This document shows positions 8,058 through 58,368 of a stretch of 64,000 nucleotides of DNA, in pieces. The stretch is taken from NCBI GenBank assembly GCA_024683775.1, contig GCA_024683775.1_4106.1. One strand, 5' to 3'. Source of the stretch: a phage. The position numbers and the translations under genes are program-made. The notes beneath the pieces are model-generated. The model was not told where the DNA came from, did not search any database, and was given only the letters and a program-made list of their open reading frames with translations. The first letter of the stretch is position 1. Every line of letters starts with the position of its first letter.

Positions 8058-8087
8058 TTGAGACAAGCATCATTCACGAGATATAAT
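8058..8087 (+). promoter_or_regulatory. promoter with GAGACAAAC-type -35 box
   Basis: ttGAGACAAgc at 8058-8068, 18-nt spacer, TATAAT at 8082-8087. Confidence 0.5.
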
Positions 8088-8154
8088 GGTGCTTGTAGTA
8101 ATCTGAAGCATACAAAAACATTTTTGATTAACAAATAAAACGGAGAATTATATA

Positions 8155-8886
8155 ATGGATCTACGCAACGTACTACGTGACCTAGTTAACACTACCAACG
8201 GCATCGACTTTTCTTGTATCGCAGTTAGCAGTGAAGACCGTGGTGATGGACAGCGTGTTTACATGGAAGCATACACCGATGACCGCACCCTAGTTATGCG
8301 TGCTCACACTAAAGAAGACGTACCAGAAGTTCAAGGTCGTTTTGGTCTTGGTAACCTAGGTCTTCTACAGGGTCTAATGTCTCTAAAAACTTATAGTACT
8401 GAAGGAACTACTATCACTTCTAATTTGAAAGATGGTGCAGTTAAGAGCCTAGCATTCAAAGCAGAAGATGCAAGCACTACTTTCATGGTTCAACCAGAAA
8501 AACTAATTCCAGCCCAGCCTCGTTTCCACGAACAACCATATGACGTACAGGTTACACCTAGTGCAGCTAAAGTTCAGGAACTAAAAAGCTTCTCTGGTGT
8601 GTTTAAATCTTTCAGTTCTCTAGTAACTCCATACACTGAAGGTGATACTCTTTACTTCCACGTTGGTGAGAAGAACAAAAGTAACCACGTTGGTGCACTA
8701 GCATTCTCTAAAACTGAAGGTGAACTAGGTCTTGGTTTTGGTTATAACATTGACCGTGTTCTACAAGCTCTATCCCGCGTTTCTAACGCAGAATCTGTTA
8801 CCCTTGGTATTACCAAAACTGGTATGCTAAACGTAACTCTAGACACTGGTATTGCGGTATACAAGATTTACGTAACAGGTTGCTAA
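8155..8886 (+). CDS. sliding clamp (T4 gp45-like)
   Basis: 243 aa; NVLRDLVNTTNGI and FGLGNLGLLQGLMSL align by eye with the T4 gp45 N-terminal region; highly biased codon usage; position near polymerase. Confidence 0.55.
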   Translation: MDLRNVLRDLVNTTNGIDFSCIAVSSEDRGDGQRVYMEAYTDDRTLVMRAHTKEDVPEVQGRFGLGNLGLLQGLMSLKTYSTEGTTITSNLKDGAVKSLAFKAEDASTTFMVQPEKLIPAQPRFHEQPYDVQVTPSAAKVQELKSFSGVFKSFSSLVTPYTEGDTLYFHVGEKNKSNHVGALAFSKTEGELGLGFGYNIDRVLQALSRVSNAESVTLGITKTGMLNVTLDTGIAVYKIYVTGC

Positions 8887-11651: not shown

Positions 11652-16908
<5,257 letters not shown>

Positions 16909-16955
16909 GATGTTTGTCAGGGCAATGAGCCTTGACAAACAGAGTAAAAAAAACC

Positions 16956-16985
16956 TTGGGACGGTTAAAAATCCCATGATATAAT
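16956..16985 (+). promoter_or_regulatory. promoter (TTGGGA, 18-bp spacer, TATAAT with TG extension)
   Basis: ttggga at 16956-16961, catgaTATAAT with TATAAT at 16980-16985; second promoter upstream of the SSB gene. Confidence 0.45.
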
Positions 16986-17072
16986 GTAAATTGTTGATGA
17001 GTCAATGAAGACAAATCAACGTTAATAGCCCGTTAAAACTTAACAAACAAACTAATGACAAGGAAGCCCAAT

Positions 17073-18122
17073 ATGCAAACTCTAGCTGAAATTCGTGCAA
17101 AACTAAAAGCTGAACAAGAAAAAGCAGAAGCACAGAAGAATGGTACATTTACAGGTGAACGTAAAGCCGATTCTTTCCTAGCTTTCTGGAATGTCCCTTA
17201 CAATGAACCACTAAACCTACGTTTTCTACCAGATGCTGATGAGTCTAACCCATTCTTCTGGCGTGAACGTGATATGATCAACCTAACGTTCCAAGGTATT
17301 GTTGGTATGCACACCGATAAAGTTACCGTTCAAGTACCATGTAACGAAATGTGGGTTCCTAAATCATGTCCAATTCTTAAAGAAGTACGTCAATGGTTCC
17401 AAAGTGCGAATGAAACTGGAAACGAAGAACTGAAAGCAATGGCTGGTCGTTACTGGAAAAAGAAAACCTATCTAATGCAATGTTTCGTTGCTCCTGATAG
17501 CGTAGCAGTAAAAGACGATATTGCTCCAGAAAACCCAATCCGTCGTATCCTAGCTAACAAAGATATCTTTGATAAAGTTAAATCTATCCTGCTAAACCCA
17601 GGCATCAAAGAACTACCAACTCACTACATTCACGGTCGTGACTTTGGTATTGTTAAAACTAAGAATGGTGGTGGTTACAATAGCTATGACATGTCTCAAT
17701 TCTCCATGTCCGAGCGTCCACTCAATGAAGAAGAACTGGCAGCGATTGAAAAGTTTGGTCTATATAATCTAAATGATTTTATGCCAAAACAACCAACTCC
17801 AGAAGAACTAAAAGCTATCGAAGAAATGTTCGAAGCATCTGTTGATGGTAAACCTTATGACCCTGCACGTTGGGCTTTCGCTTACCGTCCAGCAGGTGTA
17901 CAAAAACCAACAACTGGTACTATTAGTGAAAACAAACCTGCTCCACAAGCTCCAGTACAACAACCTGCTCCTGCACAAACTCCTGCTCCGCAAGCACCAG
18001 TAGCTACTCCTACTCCTGCTGCTGAACCAGTAGCTGCTGCACCAGCACCAGTAGCTGAAGCTCCAAAAGAACAACTTTCTGCATCTGCACTAGTTGCTCG
18101 TTTGAAACAACAAGGTAAGTAA
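17073..18122 (+). CDS. single-stranded DNA-binding protein (T4 gp32-like)
   Basis: N-terminus QTLAEIRAKLKA and LNLRFLP resemble gp32; Pro/Ala/Gln-rich flexible C-terminal tail; AAGGAAG RBS before ATG 17073. Confidence 0.75.
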   Translation: MQTLAEIRAKLKAEQEKAEAQKNGTFTGERKADSFLAFWNVPYNEPLNLRFLPDADESNPFFWRERDMINLTFQGIVGMHTDKVTVQVPCNEMWVPKSCPILKEVRQWFQSANETGNEELKAMAGRYWKKKTYLMQCFVAPDSVAVKDDIAPENPIRRILANKDIFDKVKSILLNPGIKELPTHYIHGRDFGIVKTKNGGGYNSYDMSQFSMSERPLNEEELAAIEKFGLYNLNDFMPKQPTPEELKAIEEMFEASVDGKPYDPARWAFAYRPAGVQKPTTGTISENKPAPQAPVQQPAPAQTPAPQAPVATPTPAAEPVAAAPAPVAEAPKEQLSASALVARLKQQGK

Positions 18123-20652: not shown

Positions 20653-22137
20653 ATGAAAACTTGTAAGCTAACCTTACTGGACGAGGTTAATTGTAAATTT
20701 GAGGGACTAGATCCCTCAATTCGTCAGAAGATGATTCGTGCAACAGAATATGTACTTCCATACGCTAAGTTCACCCCTGCTGGTCGTATTGGTCGTTGGG
20801 ATGGTAAGGTACAGTTTATGAACTTAGGTGGCAGTACTTACTACCACATGTTGGATAAGTTGTTGCCAATCTTAGATGAAGCAAAAATTGATATTGAACT
20901 TGAAGATCATCGTGTCAATTATGGATTCAATTTTGAACCAATTGATGAAGATATTTTTAGTGATGTTGTGTTTGGTGCTGGACACCACATGGAAGGTAAG
21001 TCAATCAAGCTCAGAGAGCATCAGGTGAACGCAGTTAATGCTTGCCTTGCAAACCCACATGGTTTATTATTAGCAGCTACAGGGGCTGGTAAAACGCTCA
21101 TCACAGCGGCATTATCCAAGAAGGTACAAGAGTATGGACGTTCTGTGATTATCGTACCTAGTACTGATTTGGTGCAGCAAACATATGATGACTATGTTAT
21201 GTGTGGTCTGGATACTGGTGTGTTCTATGGTGCACAGAAAGACTTTGGTCACCAACACACAATCACTACTTGGCAGTCATTCAACTCTTTGTGGAAGAAA
21301 ACAAAGAAAGGTGAAATTGAACTGACCGAACAAGATGTTCATGACTTTATTGATGGTGTGGTTTGTGTGATTGTCGATGAGTGTCAAGGTGCTGGTGGTG
21401 ATGCATTAGTTCAAGTACTCTCTAAAGTTATGAATAACGTACCACTTCGTTGGGGTTTAACTGGTACTATTCCAAAAGACCAAGTTGTTGCTGCGAAGAT
21501 TAAATGTAACGTTGGTGATGTGATATTTAAAATCACAGCTAAAGAATTACAAGATAAAAAAATACTAAGCACATGTAATGTGAACTGTATTAAACTTAAA
21601 AGTAATTTAAAGTTCGCGTCATATGCAGAAGAATTAAAGTACTTAGTTACTGACCGTGATAGAATGGCATATGTAGCATCACTGATAGGTGCGTTAGCAG
21701 AATCTGGAAACACTTTAGTACTGGTTGATAGACTTGAAGCTGGTGAATTACTTTGTGAATTTTTGGGTATTCCTAAGTCAGAATTTGTTCGTGGGGAAAC
21801 CAAAAAGAAAGATCGTGAATCTTCATATGGTGAAATTCGCTGGGCTGATAACAAAATACTCATTGCAACCTATGGGGTAGCAAGTACTGGTATCAGTATT
21901 TCTCGTTTGTATAATGTTGTTCTAATCGAACCAGGAAAAAGCTTCGTTCGTACCATACAGTCCATTGGTCGTGGGTTGCGTCGAGCAGAAGACAAAGACC
22001 ACGTGGAAATCTTTGATATCAGTGGCACAAACAAATATAGTGCAAAACACTTACGTGAACGTTTACAATACTATAAGGAAGCACAATATCCTCATAGTAT
22101 CATAGATGTTAAGGATTGGGAAAATACAGCGGGATAA
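20653..22137 (+). CDS. uvsW: SF2 helicase UvsW-like
   Basis: N-terminal GRWDGKVQF as in T4 UvsW, Walker A AATGAGKT, DEAH-like VIVDECQ. Confidence 0.75.
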   Translation: MKTCKLTLLDEVNCKFEGLDPSIRQKMIRATEYVLPYAKFTPAGRIGRWDGKVQFMNLGGSTYYHMLDKLLPILDEAKIDIELEDHRVNYGFNFEPIDEDIFSDVVFGAGHHMEGKSIKLREHQVNAVNACLANPHGLLLAATGAGKTLITAALSKKVQEYGRSVIIVPSTDLVQQTYDDYVMCGLDTGVFYGAQKDFGHQHTITTWQSFNSLWKKTKKGEIELTEQDVHDFIDGVVCVIVDECQGAGGDALVQVLSKVMNNVPLRWGLTGTIPKDQVVAAKIKCNVGDVIFKITAKELQDKKILSTCNVNCIKLKSNLKFASYAEELKYLVTDRDRMAYVASLIGALAESGNTLVLVDRLEAGELLCEFLGIPKSEFVRGETKKKDRESSYGEIRWADNKILIATYGVASTGISISRLYNVVLIEPGKSFVRTIQSIGRGLRRAEDKDHVEIFDISGTNKYSAKHLRERLQYYKEAQYPHSIIDVKDWENTAG

Positions 22138-22146
22138 TCCCGCTGT
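22126..22146 (+). other. perfect hairpin with the uvsW stop codon in its loop
   Basis: ACAGCGGGA-TAA-TCCCGCTGT (9-bp stem, 3-nt loop); no T-run follows. Confidence 0.5.
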
Positions 22147-22149
22147 ACA

Positions 22150-22158
22150 TGATATAAT
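22150..22158 (+). promoter_or_regulatory. extended -10 promoter element TGaTATAAT
   Basis: catgatataatgt immediately after the hairpin; same motif as at 16977 and 57314. Confidence 0.4.
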
Positions 22159-22193
22159 GTGTCGTATGACAACAACAAGGAAGTAAAATAAAA

Positions 22194-26007: not shown

Positions 26008-26985
26008 ATGGCTCATCACGGCGTGTTTATGTACCCTTATAACCAAGAAGTATCATTGGGCAATTTTAATATGCCATATAGCAATGAGAAACTTACAATA
26101 TACAGAGGTGCAAATAACAATTTATCATTCACAGTGCATAACGCTGATGGAAAATATACATTACTAAAAGATAACGAATATCTAACATTCATGATTTTTG
26201 ATGCTAGAAACAATACTAAATTATTCGATGTAGTTTTGGATAAACAAAAACCATCATGGCTATCAGAAAGTGGACAAGCAAGACAAACATTAGGCAATAG
26301 TAAAAAAGTATATTATGGATGTATTGTTCCTGCTGGTGTAATTCAGGATACTAGTCCTGGTTCAAAATATAGATGGAGTATTACTAAAGTAACAATGGAT
26401 GGTTCCTTGATTGAACCTACACAGTACTTATACACTGGTCTTGATTATGAAGCCTCTGCTGAATTGATCATTTCCGACCAAGCTGCTCCTGTGTTTGTGC
26501 CAAGTATTGAAGTATCTGTTAATAAAAACCCAGCATGGACTACCATCAAACGCTTGTATCATGAACCAATCGCTCGTGGCGTTATTGGTGAATTTGATAT
26601 AATGGCAACATCTCCCCTTCCTGCACAAATGCAGTACGGATTAGTTGATGGTCTTAGTACTATTGCAATGTACTTTGATAAATTCATTGGTAGAATTCAA
26701 TTACAAGGATGTTTGTGTAATAACGTACCAACTGATAACGAAAACTATAAATGGTTTATTGTTAAATTGGATGGTAAAGAATATATCGAAAATGATATTG
26801 ATGAAAATGGATTCCCTAAAGCGTTAGATGGGATTCAAGCATTTAATTTTAAAGGTAATTACATGTGGTTGCGATTGGTTGTTTGTATTCATCCTAAGAT
26901 CGTTCCAGTTCCTTATGACTATGCGGCAGTAAGAAAAGTCTATGACCCACTACTGTCAGTTCCTAAAATTTTGATTCGCAGGTGA
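26008..26985 (+). CDS. hypothetical late protein (probable structural)
   Basis: 326-aa ORF from ATG 26008 with GGAAGG RBS; the track ORF from 25774 extends upstream without RBS. Confidence 0.45.
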   Translation: MAHHGVFMYPYNQEVSLGNFNMPYSNEKLTIYRGANNNLSFTVHNADGKYTLLKDNEYLTFMIFDARNNTKLFDVVLDKQKPSWLSESGQARQTLGNSKKVYYGCIVPAGVIQDTSPGSKYRWSITKVTMDGSLIEPTQYLYTGLDYEASAELIISDQAAPVFVPSIEVSVNKNPAWTTIKRLYHEPIARGVIGEFDIMATSPLPAQMQYGLVDGLSTIAMYFDKFIGRIQLQGCLCNNVPTDNENYKWFIVKLDGKEYIENDIDENGFPKALDGIQAFNFKGNYMWLRLVVCIHPKIVPVPYDYAAVRKVYDPLLSVPKILIRR

Positions 26986-27011
26986 GACAAAACAAGTGTT
27001 TGTGCTATAAT
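26982..27011 (+). promoter_or_regulatory. promoter with GAGACAAAC-type -35 box
   Basis: gtGAGACAAAac at 26982-26993, 18-nt spacer, tgcTATAAT with TATAAT at 27006-27011. Confidence 0.5.
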
Positions 27012-27040
27012 CATTTGTGAGAAATAACAAGGATTAAATT

Positions 27041-33401: not shown

Positions 33402-33404
33402 AAA

Positions 33405-33434
33405 CTGAGACAAACAAAAATACGATGCTATAAT
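33405..33434 (+). promoter_or_regulatory. promoter with GAGACAAAC-type -35 box
   Basis: ctGAGACAAACaa at 33405-33417, 18-nt spacer, tgcTATAAT with TATAAT at 33429-33434. Confidence 0.5.
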
Positions 33435-33447
33435 TAGGAGTACACGG

Positions 33448-34167
33448 ATGTACACACCACCAATTGTTAGCAGATATACATACGTTGATTACAAAAGAAT
33501 TGAAGGCGGCCCCGAAGGTCGCCTTTATTCAACTCCAACAGGGAATCTGCCGTCAGTGACAACAATTCTTAGTGCCACCTCTGACAATGAGGGGTTGAAA
33601 AAATGGAGAGAATTTGTTGGTGAAGAGAAAGCTAATGAGATTACATTAGAAGCATGTACTGTTGGTACTTTTATGCACGAGAACTTAGAATATCGTCTGG
33701 ATGGAAAGCCAGACCACCAAGGTGGTATGCCGATACGAGTTCTGGCCCGTAGAATGGCTGACAAAATTCAAGAAGAAGCATGGCCTAGAATCAATGAAGT
33801 GTGGGGTCAGGAAGTTCCATTATTCTATGAAGGATTATGGGCTGGAACAACTGACTTAGTTGGAGTTCATGATGGTATTCCTTCTATCATGGACTATAAG
33901 AATTCCCGTAAATTAAAGACATGGGAACATATCGAAAATTACCGTATGCAAATCGCTGCATATGCACTATCGCATAATCAAATGTTTGGAACAAATATTG
34001 AGCGTGGTGTAATTTTCATCTGTGTAAGAAAAGATCCTAACAATTTACAATATCAAGAATTCGTTATTGAAGGACAAGACTTCAAGGATGCGGTTGATAT
34101 GTGGATTGGTAGAGTTGAACAATACTATATTTTACGTGGAGAAATTGAATCAAATGGAACAGCATAA
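33448..34167 (+). CDS. PD-(D/E)xK family nuclease (RecB/Cas4-like fold)
   Basis: Motifs H (FMHENLEY), D (TTDLVGV), D-x-K (MDYK) and QxxxY (QIAAY). Confidence 0.6.
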   Translation: MYTPPIVSRYTYVDYKRIEGGPEGRLYSTPTGNLPSVTTILSATSDNEGLKKWREFVGEEKANEITLEACTVGTFMHENLEYRLDGKPDHQGGMPIRVLARRMADKIQEEAWPRINEVWGQEVPLFYEGLWAGTTDLVGVHDGIPSIMDYKNSRKLKTWEHIENYRMQIAAYALSHNQMFGTNIERGVIFICVRKDPNNLQYQEFVIEGQDFKDAVDMWIGRVEQYYILRGEIESNGTA

Positions 34168-37710: not shown

Positions 37711-37737
37711 AGATCCCGCTTCGGCGGGATTTATTTC
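37711..37737 (+). terminator. rho-independent terminator (TTCG tetraloop)
   Basis: ATCCCGC-TTCG-GCGGGAT then TTATTT. Confidence 0.65.
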
Positions 37738-37751
37738 ATAGGAGTGATATA

Positions 37752-38525
37752 ATGAAAGTTGACTATCGTAGTCCAATAGATATTGGATTCATAGAAGAAT
37801 TTTGGGATGATCTTGATATGGATATGATTGTTCGCTATCAAAAACTCCCACAAGACTTTATAAAAAAACATTTTGATAAAATGAACCCTAATATGTTAGC
37901 TCGATATCAAACAATGACAACTGATTTTCTTAAAGAAAAGTGGGAGTGGTTTGATAAAAATGTTATTGCACAATATGTAGTCATGCCAATGGAATTGATT
38001 ATGGAAAAATGGAATGACTTCAAAGATAACTTTCTGGATACTGTTGCTAAGTATCAAAAACTAACACAAGATTTTATTCAAGACAAATGGAATGACCTTG
38101 TTGAATTTAGAGATGGTGTAATGTCGGAAATTTCCAGATACCAAAAACTAACACTTGATTTCATTAAAGATAAATGGGATTATATTGATAAGAACTATAT
38201 TTCATATTATCAAACTTTAACGGTTGATTTTATCAAAGATAATATTACTGCATTAAATGTTGCAGCAGTATCCGCATTTCAAATACTATCGGATGATATA
38301 CGCTCATTGATGGGGTTAGAAGCACCAGCAAAAACTATTACGGGTAATCAAATACTCGCGTTGGACCCATGTGCCGATGGTATGGCTCGATACAATGCTC
38401 ATACACCTGACAATAATACAGTTTTGACATGGAATGAACTACTTACACTACACTTGGGTTCACAAGAAGGAATTAGTGATATCCATTGGCTATCATATAA
38501 ATTGGGTCATAAAATTAATACATAA
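37752..38525 (+). CDS. tandem-repeat protein (about seven ~24-aa YQxLTxDFIxDKW repeats)
   Basis: Repeats RYQKLPQDFIKKHF, RYQTMTTDFLKEKW, KYQKLTQDFIQDKW, RYQKLTLDFIKDKW, YYQTLTVDFIKDN. Confidence 0.5.
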   Translation: MKVDYRSPIDIGFIEEFWDDLDMDMIVRYQKLPQDFIKKHFDKMNPNMLARYQTMTTDFLKEKWEWFDKNVIAQYVVMPMELIMEKWNDFKDNFLDTVAKYQKLTQDFIQDKWNDLVEFRDGVMSEISRYQKLTLDFIKDKWDYIDKNYISYYQTLTVDFIKDNITALNVAAVSAFQILSDDIRSLMGLEAPAKTITGNQILALDPCADGMARYNAHTPDNNTVLTWNELLTLHLGSQEGISDIHWLSYKLGHKINT

Positions 38526-54028: not shown

Positions 54029-54038
54029 TTATAAACAG

Positions 54039-54068
54039 GGAAGACCTTTATGGGTCTTCCTTGTCCTT
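54039..54068 (+). terminator. rho-independent terminator
   Basis: GGAAGACC-TTTATG-GGTCTTCC then TTGTCCTTT. Confidence 0.5.
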
Positions 54069-54070
54069 TA

Positions 54071-54080
54071 TATAAATAAT
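54071..54080 (+). promoter_or_regulatory. late-promoter-like element TATAAATAAT
   Basis: Exact TATAAATA 39 nt upstream of ATG 54117. Confidence 0.4.
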
Positions 54081-56514: not shown

Positions 56515-56826
56515 ATGTTCAATCCATTTTTTGATCCATCAACCATGACCGAGAAAGAGTTACAATTGAAAATTAACGAACAATCGATGCGTATTACGTC
56601 TGCTCGTGCAGCAGGTATGAGTGATATGATTGTTGGTAACATGCAAACCGTTCTGAATCAGTGCTATGCTGAATTAGAGATTCGTCAGGGACAAAAAGAA
56701 AAAACCTCCTATGATGAGCAAGACCCATGTATATTTGACATGAACTCTTACTTAACGGATAACGAAGAGGATCAGAAGAAGAAAAATGAAAGTACAAGGA
56801 AACAGATTTATAAGTCCCAATGGTGA
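56515..56826 (+). CDS. hypothetical protein
   Basis: 103-aa ORF. Confidence 0.4.
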   Translation: MFNPFFDPSTMTEKELQLKINEQSMRITSARAAGMSDMIVGNMQTVLNQCYAELEIRQGQKEKTSYDEQDPCIFDMNSYLTDNEEDQKKKNESTRKQIYKSQW

Positions 56827-57304
56827 TGTAAAATGTAACCTTAATGCAGTCGTGTATGCAATCAACTGTGGTGCAGATATTCAGTACTTACAGCTACAGG
56901 AGATTGATGAACCGGAACGATTGAAATTTAACGATAATTGTAAAAAATTTGGTTTAGAACAGCGTATGCTGGATTATACAATAGAACATGATAAAAACCA
57001 TGAGCTATGGCGTTATGATCCAGTGTACGATAACATCAACTTGCGTGAGTACTTTTTACAGAAATGTACATCGGATGAAGCCCGTGAACGTGTAATGTAT
57101 GAGATTGATTTGTTTGAACATTACAACATGACTAAGCTTTTAAGATGTATGATCTGGTTAGTTGATTATATGGAAGAGCACAATATTTTTTGGGGTCTTG
57201 GGCGTGGTAGTTCAGTGGCTTCGTATTGTTTGTTCCTGATTGATTTGCATATGGTTGATTCTTTGAAGTATAAACTAGATGTAAATGAATTTTTGAAATG
57301 GTAG
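56786..57304 (+). CDS. DnaE-like (Pol III alpha) palm-domain fragment, N-terminal half
   Basis: WGLGRGSSVASYCLFLIDLHMVDSLKYKLDVNEFL resembles DnaE [34 protein letters not shown]; ends just before where the catalytic Asp pair would lie. Confidence 0.45.
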   Translation: MKVQGNRFISPNGDVKCNLNAVVYAINCGADIQYLQLQEIDEPERLKFNDNCKKFGLEQRMLDYTIEHDKNHELWRYDPVYDNINLREYFLQKCTSDEARERVMYEIDLFEHYNMTKLLRCMIWLVDYMEEHNIFWGLGRGSSVASYCLFLIDLHMVDSLKYKLDVNEFLKW

Positions 57305-57344
57305 AAAAACATGTGATATAATGTTGTTTGAGGCGTTATATCAC
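57293..57344 (+). promoter_or_regulatory. promoter (TTGAAA, 18-bp spacer, TGtgaTATAAT) embedded in a 9-bp inverted repeat
   Basis: -10 at 57317-57322; GTGATATAA at 57313-57321 and TTATATCAC at 57336-57344 are perfect inverted repeats. Confidence 0.45.
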
Positions 57345-57367
57345 TCACATAGAAAAAGGATTTTTAT

Positions 57368-57712
57368 ATGTCAAAACACACAACTTATCGTGGAACCACC
57401 ATTGATATGGATATGCTAAAGTATCAAAACCAGCACCAAGTAGCACTAGGTAATGCAAACCTAAATGCTCGTGGTGATAAGATTGGTTCAGGTGGTACGG
57501 TCATTAAAACCCGTGAAGAACTAATCCAAGAAAAAGAACGTGAAATGCAAATTCCTGATTTCATTCCTGAACACCAACTTCACAGTGCTGAATATAGTAC
57601 TGAAGAAGTATGGGATGATGAAAGCTTTGAAGTTCAACCACAAGAACCAGAAGTTGAAGTATCTGAAGAGAAGAAAGCTCCACGCCGAGCAAAAACTAAA
57701 GATCAGGAGTAA
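57368..57712 (+). CDS. hypothetical protein
   Basis: 114-aa ORF. Confidence 0.4.
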   Translation: MSKHTTYRGTTIDMDMLKYQNQHQVALGNANLNARGDKIGSGGTVIKTREELIQEKEREMQIPDFIPEHQLHSAEYSTEEVWDDESFEVQPQEPEVEVSEEKKAPRRAKTKDQE

Positions 57713-57715
57713 TTC

Positions 57716-58042
57716 ATGACCAATAAAGTAATGACAGCTTGTAAAGGTAAAGTTATTGTAACTGAACTAGAACATGGTGAGCGTAAAACCGCAGGTGGTA
57801 TTGTACTGACAAGTGATGATGGTAAGATACGTGGTATTCGTTGTCGTTGGGCTAAAGTATATTCTGTTGGTGAAGACATTACCGATATCAAAGAAGGACA
57901 ATGGATTCTAATTGACCACGGTCGTTGGTCGAGAACTATTGAGATTGATGGTATTAAAATGAATCTCGTTGATTATCCAGCAGCAGTAAGTTTGGTATCT
58001 GACACTGATCCACGCATCTCTGCTCAAACATTTGGTCGTTAA
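57716..58042 (+). CDS. GroES-like co-chaperonin (Cpn10 family)
   Basis: GKVIVTELEHGERKTAGGIVLTSDDGK closely parallels GroES [27 protein letters not shown]. Confidence 0.7.
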   Translation: MTNKVMTACKGKVIVTELEHGERKTAGGIVLTSDDGKIRGIRCRWAKVYSVGEDITDIKEGQWILIDHGRWSRTIEIDGIKMNLVDYPAAVSLVSDTDPRISAQTFGR

Positions 58043-58053
58043 AACATAAATCT

Positions 58054-58086
58054 AAAGCTCGGATATATTATCTGGGCTTTTTATTT
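58054..58086 (+). terminator. rho-independent terminator
   Basis: AGCTCGGAT-ATATT-ATCTGGGCT (with G-U pairs) then TTTTTATTT. Confidence 0.5.
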
Positions 58087-58098
58087 GGATGAAAATAC

Positions 58099-58368
58099 AT
58101 GATAACTGATGATGGAAAATATAGTTTTTCTGACGTTACGTTAGTTTCTAAAAATGGACGATTTATGTTTGAAGATAGAACTAACACGAAGTACGTATAT
58201 GAAGTTTCTCATGATATGTTTAAGTACTTACTTATCGTATCAGCCCAGGCCGAAGCAATGGGTGTGAAGAACAAAGCAAACTCATTTAATTTTTTGTTTA
58301 ATCAACTTGAAATGACAGAAGACTTATTCACTGCATTGTTGTATGATTATGCAGATTGGATTTCATAA
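58099..58368 (+). CDS. hypothetical protein
   Basis: 89-aa ORF. Confidence 0.4.
   Translation: MITDDGKYSFSDVTLVSKNGRFMFEDRTNTKYVYEVSHDMFKYLLIVSAQAEAMGVKNKANSFNFLFNQLEMTEDLFTALLYDYADWIS

What the first reader, a model, noticed from the sequence alone, without database searches (positions are those of the whole stretch)
57293..57344. Promoter whose -10 element forms one arm of a 9-bp inverted repeat
GTGATATAA at 57313-57321 overlaps the extended -10, and TTATATCAC at 57336-57344 is its perfect reverse complement 14 nt downstream, covering the expected start site. That geometry is typical of an operator for a dimeric repressor, or of a 5' stem-loop in the transcript. The same (C)ATGATATAATG -10 sequence recurs at 16900, 16977 and 22150 without the partner arm.
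Basis: seen in the sequence. Interest (0 to 1): 0.4.

Follow-up and report, generated by a model that had tools for sequence, protein, structure and literature searches.

The report
Phage promoter embedded in RNA hairpin
A real, conserved inverted repeat overlaps the -10 box of an already-predicted internal promoter in a jumbo coliphage, and comparison with relatives suggests it is a sense-strand RNA stem-loop present only in transcripts that read through from upstream, not a repressor binding site; what it does is still unknown.

Summary
GTGATATAA (57313-57321) and TTATATCAC (57336-57344) are perfect complements 14 nt apart, and the first arm overlaps an extended -10 (TGaTATAAT), with TTGAAA/TGAAAT 17-18 bp upstream. 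The window is an Asteriusvirus-type (121Q/RaK2-like) jumbo coliphage. The orthologous promoter in phage CBB is already published as Porf_329, one of 18 "divergent RpoD-like" promoters.

Across nine distinct relatives the 3' arm is far better conserved than its flanks (94% against 53-61% identity). Pairing is kept while the distance between arms changes: half-site distances are 13, 14, 26, 27 and 29 bp. Several pairs are G·U, and the sense-strand RNA fold is the more stable one in all 7 lineages scored. This argues against a dimeric operator and for a nucleic-acid hairpin, most likely RNA.

The promoter's own transcript starts inside the loop. Only read-through transcripts, for example from the late promoter at 54071, can therefore form the stem. 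It is not an intrinsic terminator, it does not mask the ribosome site, and it matches no Rfam family.

A second promoter-in-hairpin at 8059-8096 shows clear compensatory covariation across the family, so the arrangement recurs. Function is unresolved. Interest is moderate.

The parts
57293..57299 (+). -35-like element: TTGAAA with an 18-bp spacer, or TGAAAT with a 17-bp spacer in the register of the phage promoter class. It lies in the last codons (E-F-L-K-W-stop) of the upstream gene.
   Evidence: It matches the TGAAAC(G) box of the CBB 'Promoter 1' class; the ortholog Porf_329 reads TGAAATGGTAAAAAAAATTATGGTATAAT.
57314..57322 (+). Extended -10 element TGaTATAAT
   Evidence: It is invariant in all Asteriusvirus-type orthologs.
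57313..57321 (+). 5' arm of the inverted repeat (GTGATATAA). As RNA the arm extends to 57325.
57322..57335 (+). Spacer or loop. The expected start of the promoter's own transcript is about 57329-57331 (G/A, 7-8 nt after the -10).
   Evidence: Inferred from sigma-70 geometry. A purine sits at this position in the window, 121Q, UE-S1, Turkey5 and A4. This is the most variable segment among relatives, at 53% pairwise identity.
57336..57344 (+). 3' arm of the inverted repeat (TTATATCAC). As RNA the arm starts at 57332.
   Evidence: Pairwise identity among 7 lineages is 94%, against 53% in the loop and 61% downstream; 2 of 9 columns vary against 18 of 22, Fisher p=0.003.
57356..57370 (+). Shine-Dalgarno AAGGA (57356-57360) and the ATG (57368) of the 114-aa gene. 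Neither is part of the stem.
56786..57304 (+). Upstream gene: a 172-aa stand-alone fragment related to DNA polymerase III alpha. Its stop codon lies in the promoter spacer.
   Evidence: PF07733 at 5.8e-9 and phrog_11127
57368..58042 (+). Genes served by the promoter: a 114-aa protein (phrog_14844; a fENko-Kae01 homolog was found by virion mass spectrometry) and a GroES-like co-chaperonin at 57716-58042
58054..58080 (+). Intrinsic terminator that closes the transcription unit
   Evidence: Annotated at the orthologous place in phage G17.
54035..54078 (+). Upstream terminator (54035-54064) followed by a T4-type late promoter motif TATAAATA (54071-54078). This is the likely source of read-through transcripts that contain both arms.
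   Evidence: No terminator is predicted between 54064 and 58054. The late motif ATAAATA precedes structural genes in CBB.
8059..8096 (+). Sister element. A promoter of the same class (tGAGACA at 8059-8065, TATAAT at 8082-8087) is enclosed by a 12-bp stem: ACAAGCATCATT at 8063-8074 pairs with AATGGTGCTTGT at 8085-8096. It lies upstream of the gene annotated as sliding clamp (8155-8886).
   Evidence: Compensatory covariation is seen across 12 relatives.

Best explanation
The repeat is a sense-strand RNA stem-loop interleaved with an internal promoter.

The promoter (TGAAAT, 17 bp, TGaTATAAT) belongs to the phage's class of divergent RpoD-like promoters and drives the 114-aa gene and the GroES-like gene. 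Its 5' arm is the -10 element itself and its expected start lies in the loop. Transcripts made from this promoter therefore lack the 5' arm and cannot fold.

Transcripts that start upstream carry both arms. They come most plausibly from the late promoter at 54071 and run through the structural gene, the 103-aa gene and the DnaE-fragment gene with no terminator in between. They fold a 9-13 bp AU-rich hairpin 8 nt after the upstream stop codon. The two mRNA isoforms of the same genes thus differ by one structured intercistronic element.

Shown here:
- the promoter motif and its orthology;
- the conservation of the 3' arm;
- pairing that is kept despite changes in loop length;
- the bias toward the sense strand from G·U pairs;
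- the absence of a terminator tail;
- the absence of ribosome-site masking.

Inferred:
- that read-through transcripts exist;
- that the hairpin acts on them. The most likely action is as a stability or processing determinant, either by hiding an AU-rich single-stranded junction or by giving a protective end after cleavage, rather than by controlling initiation at the promoter.
For: - Orthologs keep complementarity with loops of 5, 8, 13 and 14 nt and arms of 7-12 bp.
- 93.5% of cells are paired over 11 pairs in 9 sequences, against 14-60% when the partners are slid.
- The 3' arm is under purifying selection relative to its flanks.
- At the pair 57322/57335 the partner alternates between G and A. 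It is U·G in the window, Turkey5 and A4, and U-A in TH47, UE-S1 and ph0011.
- Sense-strand RNA is more stable than antisense RNA in 7 of 7 Asteriusvirus-type lineages, for example -14.9 against -7.3 and -9.0 against -3.8 kcal/mol.
- The same sense-strand bias holds in 19 of 21 sequences at three other promoter-embedded hairpins.
- The sister locus at 8059-8096 shows real covariation. All 72 cells pair, 4 of 6 pairs carry double changes, the covariation score is 0.747 against 0.315 in shuffles (0 of 500 reach it), and the slid controls stay at or below 0.146.
- There is no terminator between the late promoter at 54071 and the element.
Against: - No double-sided covariation is possible at this locus, because the 5' arm is the invariant -10. 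Pairing cannot be formally separated from conservation of a sequence motif here.
- Turkey5/JNE01 and A4 each carry one uncompensated mismatch in the core.
- RaK2-type phages keep the promoter without the hairpin. In Munch-type phages no TATAAT -10 was found at this site. The element is therefore dispensable in the wider family.
- The weak GGTA/TACC pairing in GAP32/CBB-type phages is not significant. 'GTAC' after the -10 is also common among CBB class promoters.
- Three other operon-internal class promoters in the window (27003, 33426, 39903) have no arm complementary to the -10 (for 27003 see the weak enclosing stem listed under noticed in passing).
- No transcript-mapping data were found among the papers searched for these phages.
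- The effect on read-through RNA is a guess.
Confidence: 0.5

Rival explanations
1. The repeat is an operator. A dimeric phage or host protein binds the two half-sites GTGATA and TATCAC on duplex DNA, occludes the -10 and the start site, and represses the promoter, for example to shut it off late in infection.
For: The symmetry is perfect over 9 bp and covers the -10 and the start region. The 3' arm sequence is strongly conserved. The element is found at this promoter only, which would allow gene-specific control.
Against: The half-site distance is 26, 27, 29, 13 or 14 bp in close relatives, which a rigid dimer could not follow. The stem extensions are G·U pairs, which are mismatches in DNA, and the fold is asymmetric between strands. 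No second copy of the half-site pair exists in 64 kb. The repeat does not have the CRP geometry TGTGA-N6-TCACA, and its orientation is opposite to lambda-type TATCAC...GTGATA operators (sequence reading). The sister hairpin at 8059-8096 changes its sequence completely while keeping pairing, which is how a structure behaves, not a protein site. These phages are described as lacking repressor genes (PMC11895373).
Confidence: 0.08
2. The repeat acts as a DNA-level structure. The + strand hairpin or a cruciform extrudes under negative supercoiling or when the DNA is single-stranded. This sequesters the -10 in a stem and makes the promoter sensitive to DNA topology or replication.
For: The repeat is AT-rich and the + strand folds as DNA at -6.4 kcal/mol, z=-2.6. 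The short-loop versions in EJP2 and Hallingskeid are geometrically suited to extrusion. A structure, not a sequence, is what is conserved.
Against: A 14-nt spacer with 9-bp arms is unfavourable for cruciform extrusion (established knowledge). A cruciform needs both strands to fold, but the antisense fold is much weaker in the window, Turkey5 and A4. The G·U-rich stems at the SSB promoters of relatives fold at -10.9 (CBB) and -8.4 (GAP32) kcal/mol on the sense strand against 0.0 on the antisense strand, which points to RNA.
Confidence: 0.1
3. The repeat has no function. It is a quasi-palindrome that arose by chance or by template-switch mutation next to an AT-rich, partly self-complementary -10 (TATA), and it persists by shared descent.
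For: The chance probability over 15 promoters in the window is about 0.05. Two lineages carry uncompensated mismatches, and the RaK2 and Munch groups lack the repeat. There is no covariation at this locus. No effect on ribosome-site accessibility was found.
Against: The 3' arm is 94% conserved, while the adjacent loop and the downstream spacer are 53% and 61% (p=0.003). Pairing survives a large loop deletion and 1-3 nt loop indels. The partner of 57322 changes between G and A in a way that preserves the pair. An independent promoter-in-hairpin in the same genome shows compensatory covariation.
Confidence: 0.2
4. The repeat is a T4-type translational switch, as at T4 genes e, soc, 49 and I-TevI. 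Long read-through transcripts would fold so that the ribosome site of the 114-aa gene is hidden, and only transcripts from the internal promoter would be translated.
For: The layout matches: the promoter sits inside the hairpin, so the short transcript lacks the 5' arm. The minimum-energy fold of 57290-57380 adds weak outer helices that bracket the AUG.
Against: The 3' arm ends 11 nt before the Shine-Dalgarno sequence and 23 nt before the AUG. The computed cost of opening the initiation region shows no consistent difference between long and short transcripts across 14 relatives that have the promoter, with the sign varying. The consensus fold of 7 relatives keeps the hairpin but no helix that sequesters the ribosome site.
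Confidence: 0.05

Closest known systems
CBB 'Promoter 1' class of divergent RpoD-like promoters in RaK2-like jumbo phages (Buttimer et al. 2017, PMC5259590, Table S6; also reported for GAP32)
   Same: The position is orthologous (Porf_329, upstream of CBB_329). The architecture is the same: TGAAAC(G)/TGAAAT, a 17-bp spacer and an extended -10 (T/G)(A/G)TGnTATAAT. The class is associated with replication-type genes.
   Different: The class was predicted by motif search only. No stem-loop overlapping the -10 was described. In this phage the class -35 reads tGAGACA or GGACA at most sites (sequence reading).
PeSL/PmSL composite promoter-stem-loop cassettes of T4-like phages (Arbiol et al. 2010, PMC2839356; Comeau et al. 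2014, PMC4122927)
   Same: Both are a compact intergenic unit that combines a sigma-70-like promoter with a stem-loop acting on transcription coming from upstream.
   Different: PeSL stem-loops are G/C-rich and were tested as terminators. [quoted passage not shown] Here the stem is AU-rich, has no U tract, is interleaved with the -10 and start region, and is unique in sequence.
T4 late or middle promoters located inside hairpins that mask ribosome sites (genes e, soc, 49, I-TevI). Cited from my own knowledge; the review PMC3014915 appeared but was not read.
   Same: The promoter lies inside the stem-loop, so only upstream-initiated transcripts can fold. The result is two mRNA isoforms with different structure.
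   Different: In T4 the 3' arm contains the Shine-Dalgarno sequence and the AUG. Here it does not, and the computed accessibility does not differ.
Operators that overlap the -10, such as lambda OR1/PR and LexA boxes (my own knowledge)
   Same: An inverted repeat covers the -10 and the start site.
   Different: Operators keep a fixed half-site spacing and sequence. Here the spacing varies from 13 to 29 bp and G·U pairs occur.

Membership tests
Sigma-70-type extended -10 promoter of the RaK2-like 'divergent RpoD-like' class | TATAAT -10 with a TG extension one base upstream | tested here: met
   TGaTATAAT at 57314-57322
Sigma-70-type extended -10 promoter of the RaK2-like 'divergent RpoD-like' class | Class -35 box TGAAAC(G) or TGAGAC starting 23 nt upstream of TATAAT | tested here: met
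   TGAAAT at 57294-57299 matches 5 of 6 positions. The register is the same as in CBB Table S6 and as at window sites 16900, 27003, 33426, 39903 and 43836.
Sigma-70-type extended -10 promoter of the RaK2-like 'divergent RpoD-like' class | Orthology to a listed member | tested here: met
   CBB Porf_329 lies at the same intergenic junction, between the DnaE-fragment gene and CBB_329.
Sigma-70-type extended -10 promoter of the RaK2-like 'divergent RpoD-like' class | Mapped transcription start, and dependence on host sigma-70 or on the phage RpoD-like sigma | not testable with these tools
   No transcript-mapping data were found among the papers searched.
Operator for a dimeric DNA-binding repressor | Constant half-site spacing among orthologs | tested here: not met
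   13, 14, 26, 27 and 29 bp
Operator for a dimeric DNA-binding repressor | Symmetry at the DNA duplex level (Watson-Crick on both strands) | tested here: not met
   The 9-bp core is symmetric, but the extensions are G·T, and the antisense fold is much weaker in the window, Turkey5 and A4.
Operator for a dimeric DNA-binding repressor | A cognate binding protein | not tested
   The flanking genes match no DNA-binding family in Pfam or PHROGs. The rest of the genome was not examined.
Intrinsic (rho-independent) terminator | G+C-rich stem followed at once by a U tract | tested here: not met
   The stem has 34% G+C and the tail is TCACATAGA. The terminator scan does not call it. No U tract follows the stem in the relatives that carry the hairpin.
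T4-type hairpin that masks a ribosome site and holds an internal promoter | The promoter start lies inside the hairpin, so the short transcript lacks the 5' arm | tested here: met
   The 5' arm is the -10, and the expected start at about 57329-57331 lies in the loop.
T4-type hairpin that masks a ribosome site and holds an internal promoter | The 3' arm pairs with the Shine-Dalgarno sequence or the AUG, so that long transcripts are less accessible | tested here: not met
   The arm ends at 57344 and the Shine-Dalgarno sequence starts at 57356. The opening energies of long and short transcripts show no consistent difference.
PeSL/PmSL cassette | A G/C-rich terminator stem-loop upstream of the promoter's AT-rich and -35 region | tested here: not met
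   The stem overlaps the -10 and lies downstream of the -35. It is AU-rich.
PeSL/PmSL cassette | Many near-identical copies flanking variable ORFans | tested here: not met
   The 3' arm is unique in the window. The locus lies between conserved core genes.
CRP binding site | TGTGA-N6-TCACA | tested here: not met
   In EJP2 and Hallingskeid, TGTGA and TCACA are 11-12 nt apart. In the window they are more than 20 nt apart (sequence reading).
Conserved structured RNA element | Pairs maintained by compensatory changes | tested here: inconclusive
   At this locus only one-sided G·U to A-U changes are seen, because the 5' arm is fixed. At the sister locus 8059-8096 the feature is clearly met.
Conserved structured RNA element | Match to a described RNA family | tested here: not met
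   No Rfam hit at gathering threshold in the window. Only chance-level hits (E of 2.4 or more) fall around the element.

The most novel reading that the evidence does not exclude
Promoter-embedded sense-strand RNA stem-loops may be a deliberate, family-wide device of RaK2/121Q-like jumbo phages. At selected middle-class promoters the RNA copy of the promoter is folded. This applies to the gene annotated as sliding clamp, to SSB and to the 114-aa/GroES unit. Transcripts arriving from upstream would then be marked and handled differently from transcripts started at the promoter, for example by being processed, stabilised or degraded by a host or phage ribonuclease. That would give a post-transcriptional layer of temporal control keyed to promoter usage.
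Probability: 0.25. Interest if true: 0.6.

Novelty: new variant of a known kind. Interest (0 to 1): 0.38.

Why it matters
Gene regulation in the 350-kb RaK2/121Q-like jumbo phages is almost unstudied. Their promoters are known only from motif searches. If the stem-loops interleaved with internal promoters really separate read-through from promoter-initiated mRNAs, they would be a compact way to give the same genes two differently handled transcripts at different times of infection.

The arrangement is related in layout to the T4 hairpin-plus-promoter switches and to PeSL cassettes, but it differs from both. The finding also supplies two concrete, mutable test cases (57313-57344 and 8063-8096). 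One practical caution follows for annotators: a symmetric sequence over a -10 is not necessarily an operator. If the hairpin has no effect, the finding reduces to a confirmed, already-predicted promoter.

Tried and rejected
1. Translational masking. Opening energies of the Shine-Dalgarno/AUG region in long and short transcripts of 14 relatives with the promoter show no consistent difference. The consensus fold has no helix over the ribosome site.

2. Intrinsic terminator, on either strand. The sense strand has no U tract. On the antisense strand a U run follows the stem at once in EJP2 and Hallingskeid, but the antisense stem is weak in Turkey5 and A4 (-3.8 and -2.6 kcal/mol), and no minus-strand genes need terminating.

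3. A second, convergent -10 on the minus strand. It is perfect only in UE-S1. The critical last T of the hexamer is C in the window and G in 121Q, and the hexamer is absent in EJP2 and Hallingskeid.

4. CRP, lambda-type and LexA-type sites. The spacing or the orientation is wrong (sequence reading).

5. Covariation between the Asteriusvirus arm (GTGATA/TATCAC) and the GAP32/CBB-type arm (GGTA/TACC). The latter hairpins are not significant (z about -0.2), and 'GTAC' follows the -10 in several CBB class promoters, so this was not counted as evidence.

6. The idea that only this promoter needs a hairpin because it alone is operon-internal. The promoters at 27003, 33426 and 39903 are also internal and have no arm complementary to the -10.

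7. The idea that every class promoter carries a spacer hairpin. The 18 CBB Table S6 promoters fold no better than spacer shuffles, -19.5 against -19.3 kcal/mol, p=0.44.

8. Frameshift or readthrough stimulator for the upstream stop codon. There is no slippery heptamer, and readthrough of TAG ends after 3 codons (sequence reading).

9. Rfam families: none.

10. A metagenome scan for more Asteriusvirus-type variants returned only GAP32/CBB-type sequences and 121Q-identical ones.

11. A literature search for transcriptomes of these phages found none.
Full report
**Source of the window.** The region 56700-58100 is 99.8% identical to Escherichia phages EC.P1, Ecwhy_1 and fEgEco12. It is about 83% identical to 121Q, PBECO4 and many others (genus Asteriusvirus, genomes of about 350 kb). 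A more sensitive search with 57150-57500 finds 72 records. They include the Klebsiella phages RaK2 and K64-1, Cronobacter GAP32, Pectobacterium CBB, Salmonella Munch, Yersinia fHe-Yen9-04 and Erwinia phages. The window therefore comes from a RaK2/121Q-like jumbo myovirus.

**The observation.** The sequence reads TTTTTGAAATGGTAGAAAAACATGTGATATAATGTTGTTTGAGGCGTTATATCACTCACATAGAAAAAGGATTTTTATATG.
- GTGATATAA (57313-57321) and TTATATCAC (57336-57344) are perfect complements 14 nt apart.
- TATAAT (57317-57322) carries a TG extension. TTGAAA lies 18 bp upstream, and the scan scores the pair 11 of 12 with TG.
- The -35 falls in the last codons (E-F-L-K-W-stop) of a 172-aa gene that encodes a stand-alone fragment related to DNA polymerase III alpha (PF07733, phrog_11127).
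- Downstream lie a 114-aa gene (phrog_14844; its fENko-Kae01 homolog was detected by virion mass spectrometry), a GroES-like gene and a terminator at 58054-58080.
- The -10 motif recurs 12 times, all on the + strand, against 4.1 expected.
- None of the other 14 TGnTATAAT sites has a downstream partner of 8 nt or more, and TTATATCAC is unique on the + strand.

**The promoter is already known by orthology.** The CBB genome paper lists 18 divergent RpoD-like promoters with a TGAAACG -35 box and a classic -10. Many of them lie upstream of replication genes (PMC5259590). Its Table S6 contains Porf_329, TGAAATGGTAAAAAAAATTATGGTATAAT. That is the same junction, between the DnaE-fragment gene and the 114-aa gene. 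Read in that register, the window has TGAAAT, a 17-bp spacer and TATAAT. Other class members in the window carry tGAGACA or GGACA at the same distance. These phages encode an RpoD-like sigma factor and a gp55-like late sigma factor. Which holoenzyme uses this class has not been tested.

**What relatives show about the repeat.** I compared the junction in 15 annotated phages, 6 further close relatives and the viral and metagenomic contigs.

The promoter is present in nearly all of them. Munch, fENko-Kae01 and one contig have no TATAAT -10 at this site.

Within the Asteriusvirus-type group the repeat is always present, but its geometry changes:

| Phage | Arms (bp) | Loop (nt) | Note |
|---|---|---|---|
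| window | 9 | 14 | |
| 121Q | 10 | 14 | |
| ph0011 | 11 | 13 | |
| UE-S1 | 12 | 13 | |
| EJP2 | 9 | 5 | |
| Hallingskeid | 7-8 | 6-8 | |
| Turkey5/JNE01 | 9 | 14 | one core mismatch |
| A4 | 9 | 14 | one core mismatch |

The distance from GTGATA to TATCAC is thus 26, 27, 29, 13 or 14 bp.

Each hairpin folds better than versions with a shuffled downstream half. The fraction of shuffles reaching the observed energy is 0.000-0.016, except A4 at 0.08.

Among the seven long-loop lineages the 3' arm core is 94% identical pairwise. The loop is 53% identical and the spacer before the ribosome site is 61%. Two of 9 columns vary in the arm against 18 of 22 in the flanks (p=0.003).

The close relative TH47 differs from the window at 57335 (G to A), which converts a U·G pair into U-A. 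Across lineages the partner of 57322 is G or A in six of seven.

No two-sided covariation can occur here, because the 5' arm is the invariant -10.

RaK2 has the promoter but no significant hairpin. The GGTA/TACC pairing in the GAP32/CBB-type phages is weak (z about -0.2). It is also confounded by a common GTAC after the -10 in CBB promoters. I do not count it.

**RNA or DNA, and which strand.** As RNA, the window stem extends to 13 bp with three G·U pairs at -14.9 kcal/mol. The antisense RNA reaches only -7.3. In all seven Asteriusvirus-type lineages the sense fold is the more stable one, for example -9.0 against -3.8 in Turkey5 and -7.7 against -2.6 in A4. As single-stranded DNA the fold is -6.4 kcal/mol.

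Three features fit a sense-strand RNA hairpin better than a protein-binding palindrome or a cruciform: the strand asymmetry, the tolerance of loop indels and the G/A alternation.

**Which RNA can fold.** The 5' arm is the -10, so a transcript from this promoter begins in the loop in the long-loop phages (a purine sits 7-8 nt after the -10 in all of them). In EJP2 and Hallingskeid it begins within the 3' arm. Only transcripts that start upstream contain both arms.

Upstream, a terminator (54035-54064) is followed by TATAAATA (54071-54078) in front of an 807-aa virion protein gene. No terminator is predicted from there to 58054. The ATAAATA motif is the proposed late promoter of this family. Late read-through across the junction is therefore plausible, but it has not been shown.

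**What the hairpin is not.**
- It has no U tract and is not called as a terminator.
- It does not contain the ribosome site. The computed opening energies of the initiation region do not differ consistently between long and short transcripts in the 14 relatives that carry the promoter. The consensus fold keeps only the hairpin.
- It matches no Rfam family.
- It does not fit the CRP, lambda or LexA site geometries.
- A minus-strand -10 is intact only in UE-S1.

**A recurring arrangement.** A scan of intergenic folds turned up a second class promoter inside a stem. It has tGAGACA at 8059-8065 and TATAAT at 8082-8087. The arm ACAAGCATCATT (8063-8074) pairs with AATGGTGCTTGT (8085-8096). It lies upstream of the gene that three records annotate as sliding clamp. 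I could not confirm that annotation by family or structure search.

Its orthologs keep the stem with entirely different sequences:
- EJP2: ACGTATCTATT / AATAGATACGT
- Three viral contigs: GACGTATG / CATACGTC, GACGTATGTA / TACATACGTC and GACGTATCT / AGATACGTC
- Serratia BF: ACGTATACG / CGTATACGT
- CBB Porf_265: ACGGGTAC / GTACCCGT

On the six pairs that stay in register in the alignment, all 72 cells pair and 4 pairs carry double changes. The covariation score is 0.747 against 0.315 in shuffles (0 of 500 reach it), and the slid controls stay at or below 0.146.

In CBB and its relatives the two tandem promoters before the SSB gene also have their extended -10 paired as the 3' arm of G·U-rich stems. 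For promoter P1 the sense-strand fold is -10.9 kcal/mol in CBB and -8.4 in GAP32, against 0.0 for the antisense strand.

Over the four loci the sense fold wins in 26 of 28 sequences. These sequences are not independent of each other.

The arrangement is not universal. The 18 published CBB promoters as a set fold no better than spacer shuffles (p=0.44). Several class promoters in the window have no such stem.

**Best explanation.** The inverted repeat is a selected sense-strand RNA stem-loop interleaved with an internal promoter. It distinguishes read-through transcripts, which fold, from promoter-initiated transcripts, which lack the 5' arm.

The effect is inferred, not shown. Termination and ribosome-site masking are excluded computationally. 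I therefore favour a role in the processing or stability of the long mRNA at the intercistronic junction. I give about 0.5 to the RNA-hairpin reading as a whole and much less to any particular downstream effect.

Rivals:

| Reading | Confidence |
|---|---|
| Neutral quasi-palindrome | 0.2 |
| DNA-level hairpin or cruciform | 0.1 |
| Dimeric operator | 0.08 |
| T4-type translational switch | 0.05 |

**Comparison with known systems.** The promoter is a member of the published CBB/GAP32 class. The combination of promoter and stem-loop resembles the PeSL/PmSL cassettes of T4-like phages. It also resembles the T4 hairpins that hold an internal promoter. It fails a defining feature of each, because the PeSL stem is a G/C-rich terminator next to the promoter's upstream AT-rich region and the T4 hairpins pair with the ribosome site. 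It is best filed as a new variant of a known kind. Interest is moderate. It would rise if transcript mapping shows that the stems control the fate of read-through RNA.

Noticed in passing
window 8059-8096 (orthologs in L160, L167-L177): A second promoter of the same class is enclosed by a 12-bp stem, upstream of the gene annotated as sliding clamp. The stem sequence differs completely among relatives, but pairing is kept in 72 of 72 cells, and 4 of 6 pairs carry compensatory changes.
   Followed up: yes
L160 (CBB) record positions 200872 and 200959; L178-L183: Two tandem class promoters lie before the SSB gene in CBB/GAP32-type phages. Their extended -10 forms the 3' arm of G·U-rich stems that fold only on the sense strand. 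The 5' arm changes among relatives to keep pairing.
   Followed up: partly
window 16899-17055: Two tandem class promoters (-10 at 16903 and 16980) lie upstream of the SSB ortholog at 17055-18122 (62% identical to CBB_277). Between them is a strong 13-bp hairpin (about 16912-16940, -15 to -22 kcal/mol) followed by a run of eight A, not U. Its role is unknown.
   Followed up: partly
window 54035-54078: A strong terminator is followed directly by TATAAATA, the T4-type late promoter motif, in front of the 807-aa virion protein gene. Only 3 copies of this octamer occur in the window (8887, 20155, 54071), fewer than the 7.2 expected by chance.
   Followed up: partly
window 56786-57304: A 172-aa stand-alone ORF matches only a small part (positions 15-95 of 260) of the DNA polymerase III alpha NTPase domain. 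It is conserved as a separate gene across the whole phage family. Its function as a fragment is unclear.
   Followed up: no
window 33403-33450: This class promoter has a consensus -35 (tGAGACA), but its -10 is followed immediately by the Shine-Dalgarno sequence (TATAATTAGGAG). A start 7 nt downstream would leave the ribosome site out of the transcript. The same layout is seen in CBB Porf_300.
   Followed up: no
window 26976-27025: A possible third promoter-enclosing stem: TCGCAGGTGA pairs with TCATTTGTGA (10 bp, three of them G·U) around the class promoter at 27003. It is weak (z=-1.9) and was not checked in relatives.
   Followed up: no
window 22127-22160 and 37713-37753: At two promoters a G/C-rich terminator-like hairpin sits immediately upstream and overlaps the -35 position. 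This is a PeSL-like tandem arrangement of terminator and promoter.
   Followed up: no
whole window: There is a strong strand asymmetry of the hexamer GTGATA: 58 copies on the + strand against 16 of its complement TATCAC. Nearly all long ORFs are on the + strand, and + strand ORFs cover 91% of the window.
   Followed up: no
L006 (RaK2) 745-790: In RaK2 the upstream gene ends differently, and a second TTGAAC box follows the stop codon. It sits in the loop of a weak 8-bp A/U hairpin (-4.1 kcal/mol, not significant), so the promoter there appears to have been rebuilt.
   Followed up: partly
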